Shown here: piece by piece, positions 52,185-53,794 of the stretch | Layout of the letters: each line of letters begins with the position of its first letter | Position numbering within the stretch: the first letter of the stretch is position 1 | Virus record (IMG/VR): IMGVR_UViG_3300045988_154391 | DNA from: a virus | Lineage: Duplodnaviria; Heunggongvirae; Uroviricota; Caudoviricetes | Reading direction: 5' to 3' (one strand) | DNA: 64,000 nt | Notes under the pieces: generated by a model | Databases searched by the model: none | What the model was told of the DNA's origin: nothing | The model's input: only the letters and a program-made list of their open reading frames with translations | Translations under genes and position numbers: made by a program

Positions 52185-52447
52185 CCTCTCACTCCATTAT
52201 TTAACGAATAAAAAAGCTGCGGTGCCGGGTGCCTCCCGGTGTCCTTTGGCTGGTTATCCACCGTGGACGGGGAAACAAGGAGAAATGAATGGACTGATAT
52301 AACCATTTCCCCGCGTGCGCTTAGCCGCATTCACCGCAATGGTAAGAGCACTTGGCTGGCTGGGCGGCGATGACGCCTGTACGCATTTGTTGATCCGGTT
52401 CTGCTTCCGGCATTCGCTTAATTAGCCAAATACTCTTAACGTTGCGC

Positions 52448-52534
52448 TGGCGGAGAGTAATGGAATCGAACCATCATCGCTTGCGCTATGGGACGGTTTT
52501 CAAGACCGCTTGAGCACCATGCTCCCTACTCTCC
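52448..52534 (-). tRNA. tRNA-Ser(UGA)-like gene with shortened D-arm
   Basis: GGAGAGT acceptor pairs with ACTCTCC; anticodon arm GCGGT-CTTGAAA-ACCGT resembles E. coli tRNA-Ser(UGA); long variable region; T-loop TTCGATT; GCCA 3' end. Confidence 0.4.
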
Positions 52535-52867
52535 AGTGATTGTGGTGGTCGGTGCTGAACTCCGACACAGGGTTGTAGCAAGCCCCGCAAAGCGCGCACT
52601 ACTGTAGTTGCGGCACATCAGCCTGTGCATTCACCACAATGTTGAGAACACTGGTTGTCACGCGGCAACGCAACATTTATTCATAGATTGGGATATGACC
52701 CCGTTACGCCAATGTTCTCAACGTTGTAGTGCCGGTTACGGTTCCGGCCAGGCCTCTTCCTCAACGGGGTGTTCTCCATACGGACTACCGTTTATTGGTC
52801 GTTCCTGCGGTTTATGTTGTGAAGCCAGATGCTTATCTTCTGGTTGCTTCTAAGAGCTGCACTTCAT

Positions 52868-52954
52868 CACAACGGTAAGGGTACTTCGTAGGGATTCGAA
52901 CCCTCTGCCAAGCTCGGCGATCTCCGACGTCGCAAAATACCCTTACCTGTTGTG
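52868..52954 (-). other. tRNA-like fragment (T-arm GGTTCGAATCC) inside a 16-bp inverted repeat
   Basis: CACAACGGTAAGGGTA ... TACCCTTACCTGTTGTG arms; internal sequence cannot be folded into a full cloverleaf. Confidence 0.3.
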
Positions 52955-52955
52955 C

Positions 52956-53031
52956 TGGTGCCGATTAACGGACTCGAACCGCTGACATCCTGCTTACAAG
53001 GCAGGCGCTCTACCAACTGAGCTAAACCGGC
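52956..53031 (-). tRNA. trnT: tRNA-Thr (anticodon UGU)
   Basis: GCCGGTTTAGCTCAGTTGGTAGAGCGCCTGCCTTGTAAGCAGGATGTCAGCGGTTCGAGTCCGTTAATCGGCACCA. Confidence 0.85.
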
Positions 53032-53033
53032 AT

Positions 53034-53109
53034 TGGCGATGGTGGATGGATTTGAACCATCGACCCGTTGATTAACAGTCAACCGCTCTAACCGCTGAGC
53101 TACACCATC
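53034..53109 (-). tRNA. trnA: tRNA-Asn (anticodon GUU)
   Basis: GATGGTGTAGCTCAGCGGTTAGAGCGGTTGACTGTTAATCAACGGGTCGATGGTTCAAATCCATCCACCATCGCCA. Confidence 0.85.
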
Positions 53110-53777
53110 ACTTGCCGGGTACGTCTCCGGCGAGGGCTTCCACCTCCGTATGCTTTTCGGCGCACCGCGCCCTGGCTGCAATTCGGTAACAGGGGATGCA
53201 TAACCCTGGCTTCCAGCGTGATTAGCGCTTTCAGCATGACGGGATATACCCGTAAATTCGTGGAACTGTACCCAAAGTGCTGTTAAGCACCGCTGTTACG
53301 CTGAAAAGAAGACGCAACAGGAAAGGACGCTGACCAACAGATGGCCCCTTCTCGTTCATCTGGTTAATCACACCAGCGCCCTTACCTGTTGTGCCTCCCC
53401 GTTCCCTAATACACAGACGGGGACACTCTGCGGTCGATTTTTTGACGGGGGACGACTCATACCCCGTGGCGTCTGGCTTCTTAGGCCGCTACCATCATCA
53501 GATCATCGTTTGCATTTACTTTAATGGTCAGTTTCTAAAACGCCGCAAAGTCGCTAACCATGACGAAAACCCTGAAAAAAACGCCCACCCGAAGATGGGC
53601 AAACTGGAAGCTCGTAACGCACTTCGGTGTTGCCACTTAGGCGTATGGTCAACCTGGCAACTCGGCGTCATGAGGGGGAAGGAGTCACTACCCCGCCATA
53701 CTTGCCGCCGCGCCTGTCGCGGCTAACAGCTAAATCGCTCTATAAATCACGATTCATTGAGGCGATATTACACTAAT

Positions 53778-53794
53778 AAATTTATTAGAGCAAT
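53778..53794 (-). promoter_or_regulatory. C1 operator (perfect consensus) at the dmt stop, upstream of the tRNA-ban operon
   Basis: Plus-strand AAATTTATTAGAGCAAT, exact reverse complement of ATTGCTCTAATAAATTT. Confidence 0.8.

What the first reader, a model, noticed from the sequence alone, without database searches (positions are those of the whole stretch)
52200..53794. RNA-rich, ORF-free island: three canonical tRNAs plus a Ser-like tRNA and a palindrome-embedded tRNA fragment
Between upl and dmt (~1.6 kb) there is no convincing protein gene. It holds tRNA-Thr and tRNA-Asn one nucleotide apart, a tRNA-Ser(UGA)-like gene with a shortened D-arm (52448-52534), and a T-arm-containing fragment inside a 16-bp inverted repeat (52868-52954). 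The 16-mer CCCTTACCTGTTGTGC recurs at 53381-53396. The island lies downstream of a perfect C1 operator, so these RNAs would be produced on derepression together with ban. P1 is described as carrying three tRNAs; the extra elements may be pseudogenes, processing signals or small RNAs.
Basis: seen in the sequence. Interest (0 to 1): 0.5.

Follow-up and report, generated by a model that had tools for sequence, protein, structure and literature searches.

The report
Phage RNA island with hairpin family
The gene-free stretch of this P1-like phage-plasmid is a repressor-controlled string of RNA genes (two normal tRNAs, an odd but conserved serine tRNA, two small-RNA-like ends) separated by four copies of a long hairpin that also occurs in phage lambda and many relatives and probably marks where the transcript is cut.

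Summary
The sequence features are real, with small errors. Only two canonical tRNAs lie inside 52200-53794: Asn and Thr, 2 nt apart. The third tRNA, with anticodon CAU, is at 51037-51112. The 16-mer repeat is at 53379-53394. P1's annotated upl and plp ORFs lie inside the island and fail coding tests.

All RNAs are on the minus strand, downstream of a perfect C1 operator.

The Ser(UGA)-like tRNA (52448-52534) is a conserved, covarying class II tRNA with a compact D-arm. It is absent from P1 itself but already annotated in D6-like, SSU5-like and rV5-like phages.

The "palindrome with a T-arm" is not a stray tRNA fragment. It is one of four copies (Ha, Hb, Hc, Hd) of a roughly 75-125-nt hairpin family. 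The arms are nearly invariant and covarying, about 20 bp long, with a CACAAC/GUUGUG base and a bulged A. The interiors are hypervariable.

This family is widespread in enterobacterial temperate phages, including lambda just after tR', and I found no Rfam match.

The most likely role is an RNase III-type processing or stability stem. This is inferred, not shown.

The island ends are a DicF-precursor-like leader with a terminator and an STnc100-like element.

The parts
53767..53794 (.). Bivalent C1 operator (Op72a/b type): a perfect 17-mer at 53778-53794(-) and a 2-mismatch half-site at 53767-53783(+)
   Evidence: Pattern search. It corresponds to the annotated P1 operator Obanab.
53765..53793 (-). 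Pban-type sigma-70 promoter: -35 TTGCTC at 53788-53793 and -10 TAATAT at 53765-53770, with a 17-nt spacer
   Evidence: Positions were transferred from the P1 annotation onto the window sequence. The strict promoter scan did not find it independently.
53575..53758 (-). Leader RNA of about 184 nt. Positions 53625-53722 are homologous to the ydfC-dicF precursor region of K-12 Qin. It ends in an intrinsic terminator (stem 53582-53601 plus U7). DicF itself is absent.
   Evidence: Terminator scan. The segment is 82% identical to 4447 of 5426 E. coli genomes and maps between ydfC and dicF. There is no DicF Rfam hit.
53307..53393 (-). Hairpin Ha (family member). Its 5' arm carries the repeated 16-mer.
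   Evidence: R1 model: 33.0 bits, E 4.6e-6, against 27.6 bits on the plus strand. Folding z = -5.3.
53034..53109 (-). tRNA-Asn(GUU), CCA encoded
   Evidence: ARAGORN. Rfam tRNA 74.5 bits.
52956..53031 (-). tRNA-Thr(UGU), CCA encoded, 2 nt after tRNA-Asn
   Evidence: ARAGORN. Rfam tRNA 72.9 bits.
52862..52954 (-). Hairpin Hb. It starts directly after the CCA of tRNA-Thr. Its interior holds a D-like hairpin and a perfect T-arm (a possible tRNA-elbow mimic).
   Evidence: R1 model: 56.9 bits, E 3.7e-12, against 30.6 bits on the plus strand. Folding z = -4.6. T-loop motif.
52629..52728 (-). Hairpin Hc. Its arms differ from those of Hb by compensatory changes.
   Evidence: R1 model: 46.8 bits, E 1.4e-9. 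Folding z = -3.95.
52541..52628 (-). Conserved spacer module following the hairpin tail GGUGAAUGCRCAGGC. Function unknown.
   Evidence: Shared with P1, SSU5-like and lambdoid loci. No significant fold (z = +0.5).
52448..52534 (-). Non-canonical class II tRNA-Ser(UGA): 7-bp acceptor stem, 4-bp D stem with a 5-nt D loop, a 5-bp variable stem capped by a GNRA loop, canonical T-arm, G73, CCA encoded
   Evidence: ARAGORN. Its best Rfam match is tRNA-Sec at 42.9 bits, below the 47-bit threshold. Across 9 variants 98.3% of cells are paired and 4 pairs change on both sides.
52329..52446 (-). Hairpin Hd, directly after the CCA of tRNA-Ser. Its interior at 52359-52423 is 97% identical to the lambda segment just 3' of lambda's own hairpin.
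   Evidence: R1 model: 36.3 bits, E 6.7e-7, against 17.5 bits on the plus strand. Lambda and rV5-like matches.
52205..52338 (-). STnc100/PasD-like element ending in a closing stem followed by GCUUUUUUAUU (terminator-like)
   Evidence: Rfam STnc100 37.8 bits, below the 47-bit threshold, covering model positions 31-147. Fold. The same element follows DicF in K-12 Qin.
51037..51112 (-). tRNA(CAU), the homologue of P1 trnI (tRNA-Ile2 type).
   Evidence: ARAGORN and Rfam, 64.7 bits. P1 annotation.

Best explanation
**What the sequence and comparisons show**

The island is the untranslated, C1-repressed leader of the ban operon of a P1-like phage-plasmid. It is built from non-coding modules that are also found in other enterobacterial phages. 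In transcript order (minus strand) they are:
1. A leader related to the DicF precursor, ending in an intrinsic terminator.
2. Hairpin Ha.
3. tRNA-Asn, then tRNA-Thr.
4. Hairpin Hb.
5. Hairpin Hc.
6. A conserved, non-canonical tRNA-Ser(UGA).
7. Hairpin Hd.
8. An STnc100-like element with a terminator-like 3' end.

Ha to Hd belong to one family. Its consensus is 5'-CACAAC(A)GGUAAGAGCAUUG, then a 40-70-nt hypervariable interior, then CAGUGCUCUUUCCGUUGUG, usually followed by GUGAAUGC. The stem is conserved and covaries, and it pairs better on the transcribed strand.

**Inferred mechanism**

The irregular helices of about 20-25 bp are recognised by host RNase III. This would be analogous to T7 processing signals and to the stems that flank rRNA. 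Cleavage would:
- separate the tRNAs and terminator-ended small RNAs from the read-through transcript;
- leave stem remnants that stabilise the new ends;
- possibly release the variable interior as a small RNA.

The near-identical arms also act as homology patches where interiors and flanking modules are exchanged between phages.

The Ser-like tRNA is inferred to be a working tRNA charged by SerRS.
For: **Family membership and structure**
- The covariance model R1 was built from 40 IMG/VR and other phage-locus members, with no sequence taken from this window. It finds exactly four hits in the 64 kb, all on the minus strand, at 33-57 bits and E 5e-6 to 4e-12. Each scores higher than its plus-strand mirror.
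- Across 69 distinct arm sets, 92% of cells pair and 9 of 20 pairs change on both sides (70 cells). No shuffle out of 500 reached this, and slid controls pair at 35-60%.
- G.U cells outnumber A.C cells 107 to 21, which points to RNA on the sense strand.

**Real and phage-specific**
- In viral contigs, 142 of 147 pattern matches fold as long stems.
- In general genomes only 24 of 120 do. The canonical ones there come from Enterobacterales or are lambda sequence.

**Position relative to other RNA ends**
- Family members always run in the direction of transcription.
- Some start right after a tRNA CCA, some end at a tRNA 5' end, and some lie 5-8 nt after an intrinsic terminator such as lambda tR'.

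**Link to RNase III**
- The lambda member (J02459 44787-44868; 67.7 bits) is the longest helix in the centroid fold of the late leader.
[quoted passage not shown] **Mosaic joints**
- Differences between the window and P1, and between the window and 813R1, begin or end in hairpin 3' arms.

**Ser-like tRNA**
- See, and the D6 annotation.
Against: - I have no transcript or cleavage data for this element.
- I could not read the 1988 lambda paper, so it is unverified that its RNase III sites fall in this hairpin.
- RNase III has only weak sequence preferences. It does not obviously explain why the arm sequence is nearly invariant, especially the CACAAC/GUUGUG base, the bulged A and the U.U mismatch.
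- Known phage RNase III signals carry small loops, not 40-70-nt variable interiors.
- The arm sets were selected with a pattern and a pairing filter, which inflates the percentage paired.
- The leader terminator and the terminator-like STnc100 end must be read through to reach ban. How efficiently this happens is unknown.
- The Ser-like tRNA falls below Rfam thresholds, and the D6 annotators noted that tRNAscan-SE did not call its isotype.
Confidence: 0.45

Rival explanations
1. The hairpins are not cleaved. They act as structural punctuation instead. They would protect the 3' ends of the preceding tRNA or small RNA from exonucleases. They would also keep the long untranslated leader folded, so that Rho cannot load before ban or the lysis genes.
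For: - They lie in long untranslated leaders, directly after structures that form 3' ends.
- They fold very stably, with z from -2.9 to -5.3.
- Several occur in tandem in the 1.6-kb untranslated island.
Against: - A hairpin abutting CCA would block the exonucleolytic trimming that tRNA 3' maturation needs, unless something cuts it off.
- In lambda the polymerase is already Q-modified and resists termination.
- This role does not explain the conserved arm sequence either.
Confidence: 0.2
2. The conserved stem is a scaffold and the variable interior is the functional part. The interiors would be a repertoire of small structured RNAs, some of them tRNA-elbow mimics. Once released or displayed, they would bind host factors that recognise tRNA, or act as decoys or sponges.
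For: - There are at least 57 distinct interiors in one scaffold.
- T-loop-like mini-hairpins occur in 14 of 93 unique members, in three unrelated interior classes, against 0.075 expected.
- The Hb-type interior (D-like hairpin plus T-arm) is kept in P1-like and in unrelated lambdoid contexts (L031, L127).
- The Hb 3' arm plus tail is 17/20 identical to GcvB nt 57-77.
Against: - Most interiors have no recognisable motif, and 42 of 93 fold as a simple hairpin.
- Predicted pairing of the arms with GcvB is no better than for shuffled arms, z from -0.1 to -1.2.
- There is no Rfam YrlA, AgvB or tRNA hit on the hairpins.
Confidence: 0.15
3. The hairpins are mainly DNA-level elements. They would be recombination linkers or palindromic mobile repeats (MITE-like or attC-like) that spread and shuffle modules, with no role as RNA.
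For: - The arms are near-identical in unrelated phages while the interiors and flanks differ.
- Mosaic breakpoints fall in the arms.
- Copy number varies among P1-like genomes, from 3 to 5.
Against: - The orientation always follows transcription.
- The G.U over A.C excess is 107 to 21, and the antisense strand scores lower with the model.
- No target-site duplications or conserved interior were noticed in the loci inspected, and no systematic search was done.
- The attC cores RYYYAAC/GTTRRRY are not matched.
- No integron-type integrase gene was noticed in the loci inspected. That observation is not backed by any search.
Confidence: 0.12
4. One reading: the extra elements are decaying tRNA pseudogenes and fragments with no function.
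For: - The region holds tRNA-like remnants. A sequence resembling a tRNA 3' end precedes Hc, and there is a T-arm in Hb.
- P1 itself lacks the Ser-like gene.
Against: - The Ser-like tRNA is conserved with compensatory changes in four phage groups.
- The hairpin arms are under strong constraint across hundreds of loci.
Confidence: 0.05

Closest known systems
RNase III processing sites in the Q-dependent late transcript of phage lambda (Daniels, Subbarao, Blattner and Lozeron 1988, Virology 167:568; known to me only by title, through PMC7547250)
   Same: Lambda carries a high-scoring family member (67.7 bits) just after tR'. It is the longest helix in the centroid fold of the late leader.
   Different: I could not read the paper, so the match of coordinates is unverified. 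The paper concerns one phage, not a family, and not P1's early ban leader.
Phage T7 RNase III processing signals (R0.3, R1.1 and others) and the stems flanking 16S/23S rRNA
   Same: All are irregular helices of about 20 bp, with bulges or internal loops, placed between products of a polycistronic transcript. As in the rRNA stalks, the stem encloses another RNA. This comparison rests on established knowledge, not on a test here.
   Different: There is no sequence similarity. T7 signals have small loops. Here the arms are almost identical across unrelated phages and the enclosed RNA is hypervariable.
Stable RNAs of the phage T4 tRNA cluster (species 1 and 2, rnaC/rnaD)
   Same: They are structured RNAs of unknown function, not tRNAs, interleaved with phage tRNA genes and matured from the same precursor. 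This is from my own knowledge.
   Different: I did not test sequence or structural homology. T4 is virulent and its cluster is not repressor-controlled.
The dicF region of the dicB operon (Qin prophage) and the STnc100/PasD prophage small RNAs
   Same: The window's leader is 82% identical to the Qin segment just upstream of DicF. In both Qin and the window, an STnc100-like element follows downstream. P1 curators had already marked a "dicF-like region".
   Different: DicF proper (Rfam RF00039) is absent and a different terminator hairpin takes its place. STnc100 scores are below threshold (37.8 and 34.4 against 47). Here tRNAs and hairpins are inserted between the two modules.
tRNA-Ser annotated in phage D6, D6-like plasmid prophages, phage Cyrano and rV5-like phages
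   Same: It is the same gene, at 82-99% identity. The D6 record notes an [quoted passage not shown]. D6-like plasmids are reported with Asn, Thr, Ser and Met tRNAs (PMC6799933).
   Different: It is absent from P1 itself, where another family hairpin occupies the position.
Bacterial Y-RNA-like YrlA (tRNA mimic on a long stem)
   Same: Hb has a long terminal stem carrying a D-like hairpin and a perfect T-arm, so it resembles a tRNA elbow on a stalk.
   Different: No Rfam YrlA hit falls on Hb; the only YrlA hit covers the two tRNAs at 25.6 against 69 bits. The order of the arms is not permuted. No rsr/Ro gene was noticed nearby, though no search was made for one.

Membership tests
Canonical bacterial tRNA (Rfam RF00005) | Cloverleaf scoring above the 29-bit gathering threshold, with an anticodon called | tested here: met
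   Asn 74.5 bits, Thr 72.9 bits, CAU tRNA 64.7 bits. ARAGORN calls all three.
Class II tRNA-Ser (element 52448-52534) | 7-bp acceptor stem, 5-bp T stem with a UUCGAUU T loop, 7-nt anticodon loop with UGA, long variable arm | tested here: met
   ARAGORN cloverleaf. Across 9 variants 98.3% of cells pair, and 4 pairs change on both sides.
Class II tRNA-Ser (element 52448-52534) | E. coli SerRS identity set: G73, G1-C72, G2-C71, A3-U70, long variable arm (from my own knowledge of tRNA identity) | tested here: met
   All are present and invariant in the 9 aligned variants. Charging itself was not tested.
Class II tRNA-Ser (element 52448-52534) | Normal D-arm (3-bp stem and large D loop) and a score above a curated tRNA threshold | tested here: not met
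   The D stem is 4 bp (GAGC/GCUC) and the D loop 5 nt (AUGGU). The best Rfam hit is tRNA-Sec at 42.9 bits, below 47. The D6 record reports that tRNAscan-SE did not call the isotype.
tRNA-Sec (Rfam RF01852) | Anticodon UCA and a score above the gathering threshold | tested here: not met
   The anticodon is UGA and the score is 42.9 bits, below 47.
Phage long-hairpin family defined here (model R1) | CACAAC/GUUGUG base, an arm helix of about 19 bp, a variable interior, sense orientation, and a significant R1 score | tested here: met
   Ha 33.0, Hb 56.9, Hc 46.8 and Hd 36.3 bits, with E from 4.6e-6 to 3.7e-12. These are the only hits in the window on the minus strand. The arms covary.
RNase III substrate | An intramolecular helix of about two turns (20 bp or more), often with a bulge or internal loop | tested here: met
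   Predicted stems of 19-27 bp with a bulged A and a U.U mismatch.
RNase III substrate | Cleavage that depends on rnc, in vivo or in vitro | not testable with these tools
   The only lead is the title of Daniels et al. 1988 for lambda. That paper is not held.
DicF (Rfam RF00039) | Match to the 52-nt DicF model | tested here: not met
   There is no hit at E up to 10 in 50500-54500, whereas K-12 DicF scores 76.7 bits. The homology is to the segment upstream of DicF.
STnc100 (Rfam RF02076) | Score at or above 47 bits over the 206-nt model | tested here: not met
   37.8 bits over model positions 31-147 only. It is related but below threshold.
YrlA Y-RNA-like (Rfam RF02553) | Match to the model, with an rsr gene nearby | tested here: not met
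   There is no hit on Hb. The only hit is 25.6 bits, below 69, and spans the Thr and Asn tRNAs.
Integron attC site | R''/R' cores RYYYAAC and GTTRRRY, with an IntI integrase | tested here: not met
   The cores read GCACAAC and GTTGTGN, one mismatch each. No IntI-type integrase gene was noticed in the loci inspected, though this was not backed by any search. The element's orientation always follows transcription.

The most novel reading that the evidence does not exclude
The hairpin family could be a natural modular RNA cassette system of enterobacterial temperate phages. An almost invariant stem, read by a host nuclease, would present and release a hypervariable cargo RNA of 40-70 nt. At least 57 cargo types were seen, and some mimic a tRNA elbow. 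Recombination within the identical arms would let phages as different as lambda, P1 and SSU5-like plasmids trade cargos. This would be a prokaryotic counterpart of a pri-miRNA-like scaffold, producing a diverse and so far uncatalogued set of phage small RNAs.
Probability: 0.2. Interest if true: 0.75.

Novelty: new member of a known kind. Interest (0 to 1): 0.5.

Why it matters
**Annotation corrections**
- The P1 reference annotation draws two protein genes (upl, plp) over what is almost certainly an RNA-only region. Automatic pipelines add further ORFs there.
- Recognising the hairpin family and the extra tRNA would correct the annotation of hundreds of P1-like, D6-like and SSU5-like phage-plasmids. 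Many of these carry resistance genes.

**A possible shared processing rule**
- The same roughly 20-bp stem sits after tR' in lambda and between tRNAs in P1-like plasmids.
- If it is a common processing signal, one rule would explain how temperate enterobacterial phages mature tRNAs, terminator-ended small RNAs and downstream mRNAs from read-through transcripts.

**Testable leads**
- The unexplained invariance of the arm sequence and the very diverse interiors can be tested directly.
- Those tests could uncover a new set of phage small RNAs, or a sequence-specific host factor.

Tried and rejected
1. **phi80 M3 RNA.** I suspected the hairpin might be this classic RNase P substrate. The phi80 record annotates M3 as the oop homologue, and the phi80 late leader holds no family member.
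2. **GcvB sponge or mimic**, by analogy with AgvB.
   - Only Hb-type arms resemble GcvB (17/20).
   - Duplex energies are no better than for shuffled arms.
   - AgvB is a separate 51-60-nt primary transcript (PMC4104026).
3. **A rrn-type boxA** (UGCUCUUU) in the 3' arm. It is not kept in the covarying subfamilies Hb and Hc, and it is sequestered in the stem.
4. **attC, MITE or other DNA elements.** The attC cores are not matched and the elements show strand bias; no integron-type integrase gene or target-site duplication was noticed in the loci inspected, though neither was searched for systematically.
5. **DicF as cargo of a family hairpin in Qin.** The fold is weak, z = -1.5.
6. **K-12 as a route to published RNase III maps.**
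   - Qin has only a mini member at 25.9 bits.
   - DLP12 has none.
   - The supplements of the RNase III cleavage-map paper are not held.
7. **Rfam search** of 14 lambdoid loci at gathering thresholds. No family overlaps the hairpins.
8. **Full-text search** for the arm sequences. No paper was found.
9. **Papers not held:** the P1 genome paper, the D6 paper, Daniels 1988, Bothwell 1976 and Faubladier 1994.
10. **Pattern scan of 596 Gb of genomes.** I used it as a negative control.
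Full report
**Identity of the region**

The window is a P1-like phage-plasmid. Positions 52185-53794 are 100% identical to E. coli plasmid NZ_CP022733.1 and about 97% identical to P1 over 86-89% of their length.

In the P1 record, this stretch lies between dmt and the tci-trnI-ban genes. It contains the bivalent C1 operator Obanab (Op72), the promoter P1ban, a "dicF-like region", and trnA (Asn) and trnT (Thr). It also contains two plus-strand ORFs called upl and plp.

**Checking the observation**

- ARAGORN and Rfam find tRNA-Asn(GUU) at 53034-53109 and tRNA-Thr(UGU) at 52956-53031. 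Both are on the minus strand, both encode CCA, and 2 nt separate them.
- A third canonical tRNA, with anticodon CAU (the P1 trnI homologue), lies at 51037-51112.
- ARAGORN calls tRNA-Ser(UGA) at 52448-52534.
- The inverted repeat at 52868-52954 and its internal T-arm are real.
- The 16-mer recurs at 53379-53394, 2 nt from the reported position.
- The perfect C1 operator is at 53778-53794, with an overlapping weaker half-site.

**Is the island free of protein genes?**

Yes, as far as sequence can show.
- The longest ORFs have no Pfam match. They are 111 aa on the plus strand and 104 aa on the minus strand, the latter running across both tRNAs.
- The counterpart of P1 plp has a premature in-frame stop in this window. 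In more distant relatives it carries indels that are not multiples of three and up to four in-frame stops. Substitutions are spread evenly over codon positions, for example 12/14/12.
- The 111-aa ORF behaves the same way, at 105/107/117, with 7-8 indel columns.
- So P1's upl and plp are very probably artefacts drawn on the antisense strand of RNA genes.
One is a 78-aa membrane protein and the other an SPFH/Band_7 lipoprotein. Here they replace P1's tciABC.

**The Ser-like tRNA**

P1 itself lacks this gene. In P1, window positions 52351-52540 are replaced by another hairpin.

The same 87-91-nt gene occurs in several other phage groups, where it is annotated tRNA-Ser (PMC6799933):
- D6 and D6-like plasmids;
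- SSU5-like phage-plasmids of E. coli and Klebsiella;
- phage Cyrano;
- rV5-like virulent phages.

Its structure is as follows.
- A 7-bp acceptor stem carrying G1-C72, G2-C71, A3-U70 and G73.
- A compact D-arm, with the 4-bp stem GAGC/GCUC and the 5-nt loop AUGGU.
- A normal anticodon arm.
- A 5-bp variable stem capped by a GNRA loop.
- A canonical T-arm.

Across nine variants, 98.3% of cells pair. Four pairs change on both sides: two in the acceptor stem, one in the D stem and one in the variable stem. The rV5-like version keeps a variable stem of different sequence.

Rfam's best match for it is tRNA-Sec, at 42.9 bits against a threshold of 47. But the anticodon is UGA, not UCA.

I read it as a functional, non-canonical tRNA-Ser. 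Charging was not tested.

**The palindrome is one member of a hairpin family**

The minus strand holds four long hairpins with related arms.

| Hairpin | Window position | R1 bits (minus strand) | R1 bits (plus strand) |
|---|---|---|---|
| Ha | 53307-53393 | 33.0 | 27.6 |
| Hb | 52862-52954 | 56.9 | 30.6 |
| Hc | 52629-52728 | 46.8 | 28.1 |
| Hd | 52329-52446 | 36.3 | 17.5 |

Their folding z-scores run from -2.9 to -5.3. The repeated 16-mer is the 5' arm of Ha and Hb. Hb and Hd begin right after the CCA of tRNA-Thr and tRNA-Ser.

The same arms occur in P1, D6, SSU5-like plasmids and phage lambda/HK630. In lambda the hairpin lies directly after the tR' terminator.

How widespread and how specific the family is:
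There, 142 of 147 matches fold as long stems, giving 107 unique sequences. At least 57 different interiors are present.
- The same pattern in 596 Gb of bacterial genomes gave mostly chance hits. Background pairing there peaks at 11-12 of 20, and only 24 of 120 reach 15.
- The matches with canonical arms in that scan came from Serratia, Klebsiella, Pectobacterium and Superficieibacter, from exact lambda sequence in other assemblies, and from several loci whose source I did not check.

Evidence for the structure:
- Consensus: CACAAC(A)GGUAAGAGCAUUG, then a 40-70-nt variable interior, then CAGUGCUCUUUCCGUUGUG, usually followed by GUGAAUGCGCAGGC.
- In 69 distinct arm sets, 92% of cells pair and 9 of 20 pairs change on both sides (70 cells). 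No shuffle out of 500 reaches this, and slid controls pair at 35-60%.
- A caveat applies. The sets were chosen with a pattern and a filter of at least 15 pairs out of 20.
- G.U cells outnumber A.C cells 107 to 21.

A covariance model (R1) built from 40 members, none taken from this window, finds exactly the four copies in the 64 kb. Each scores higher on the minus strand than on the plus strand. Lambda scores 67.7 bits at J02459 44787-44868. No Rfam family covers these elements, and I found no paper that prints the arm sequence.

**Context of family members**

- Orientation always follows transcription.
- In lambdoid prophages the hairpin lies between Q/pR'-tR' and the holin gene.
- Of 85 distinct upstream contexts, 16 show an intrinsic terminator ending 5-8 nt before the stem. 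Nine show a tRNA 3' end.
- In several loci the stem's last 3 nt are the first 3 nt of a tRNA.
- Mosaic breakpoints fall in the arms. These include the window against P1, the window against 813R1, and cases where the same interior has different 3' flanks.
- T-loop-like mini-hairpins occur in 14 of 93 unique members, in three unrelated interior classes, against 0.075 expected.
- The interior of Hb is a D-like hairpin plus a perfect T-arm.

**The two ends of the island**

- From about 53758, the leader runs to an intrinsic terminator with stem 53582-53601 followed by U7.
- Positions 53625-53722 are 82% identical to a segment present in 4447 of 5426 complete E. coli genomes. In K-12 that segment lies between ydfC and dicF in the Qin prophage.
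- The alignment shows that the P1-type leader shares the precursor part but replaces DicF itself with a different terminator hairpin.
- At the other end, 52205-52338 resembles STnc100/PasD, at 37.8 bits against a threshold of 47. It ends in a closing stem followed by a U-run.
- In Qin, an STnc100-like element follows DicF directly.
- So the island resembles a lambdoid dicF-dicB intergenic region into which tRNAs and hairpins have been inserted.

**Mechanism**

What is shown:
- the architecture of the island;
- the conservation and covariation of the hairpin arms;
- the strand preference;
- the position of the hairpins at junctions between RNA products.

What is inferred: the stems are RNase III-type processing or stabilising signals. 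The grounds are these.
- Their size and irregular helix fit such signals.
- They sit exactly where a read-through transcript must be separated from a tRNA or a terminator-ended small RNA.
- The family is restricted to hosts that share one RNase III.
- RNase III processing has been reported for the homologous dicB-operon leader (Faubladier 1990, cited).
- A paper title reports RNase III sites in lambda's Q-dependent late RNA (Daniels 1988, cited), and the family hairpin is the longest helix in the centroid fold of that leader.

I could not read the 1988 paper. RNase III also does not explain the near-invariant arm sequence, so I give this 0.45.

The rivals are:
- uncleaved protective or anti-Rho structures;
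- cargo-presenting scaffolds;
- DNA-level recombination linkers;
- decayed tRNA genes.

**Novelty and score**

Already on record:
- the island as such;
- its tRNAs;
- the C1 control;
- the "dicF-like" note;
- the Ser tRNA in D6-like phages.

What seems unrecorded in the resources I could search:
- the hairpin family linking lambda, P1, D6-like and SSU5-like elements;
- its covariation;
- its hypervariable interiors;
- the spurious status of upl and plp.

I rate this as a new member of a known kind, with interest 0.5.

Noticed in passing
window 51140-52184 (-): P1's tciA/B/C genes are replaced here by a 78-aa membrane ORF and a 275-aa SPFH/Band_7 lipoprotein (Pfam PF01145, E 1e-30). The same gene pair lies just downstream of a family hairpin in the unrelated IMG/VR locus L050, which suggests a mobile moron.
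   Followed up: partly
NC_000913.3 about 1641160-1641223 (-) (L256 5161-5224): The K-12 Qin prophage carries a miniature, divergent member of the hairpin family (64 nt; R1 25.9 bits, against 11.1 on the other strand). It lies between cspB and essQ. This could give access to published K-12 RNase III data.
   Followed up: partly
L133 2671-2880 (K-12 Qin, between dicF and dicB): An STnc100-like element (34.4 bits, below the 47-bit threshold, over the full model) starts immediately after DicF and reaches the dicB start codon. It is not annotated in RefSeq.
   Followed up: no
L010 2385-2483 (-) (rV5-like phage phita32): ARAGORN reports a 99-nt "tRNA-???" with a 4-base anticodon call (atcc). Rfam scores it 35.5 bits as tRNA. 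It lies between the Ser-like tRNA's trailing module and tRNA-Thr and is unannotated in the record.
   Followed up: no
window, 10 sites (for example 5976, 20908, 37463, 57624): There are ten matches to the C1 operator 17-mer at up to 2 mismatches, against 0.04 expected. Only 53778-53794 is perfect. This fits a complete P1-type immunity regulon.
   Followed up: no
L159 and L163 (genome contigs): The lambda hairpin and 3' tail are matched exactly (90 nt) in contigs titled Pseudomonas sp. 30_B and a Chromatiales MAG. This is most simply lambda DNA contaminating those assemblies.
   Followed up: no
phage records MG065635, MG065652 and others: GenBank records named "Campylobacter phage" match the tRNA-Ser region of rV5-like coliphages at the same identity as true rV5-like phages. 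They may be mislabelled or contaminated.
   Followed up: no
window 53391-53726 (+) and the equivalent in CP101300.1 / NZ_CP022733.1: Automatic annotation calls a hypothetical protein on the antisense strand of the ban leader. It shows no codon-position bias, and relatives carry frame-breaking indels.
   Followed up: yes
window 53461-53570: The spacer between the leader terminator and Ha is about 83% identical to segments in lambdoid IMG/VR loci (L022, L096, L111). It is another shared non-coding module of unknown function, with no significant fold.
   Followed up: no
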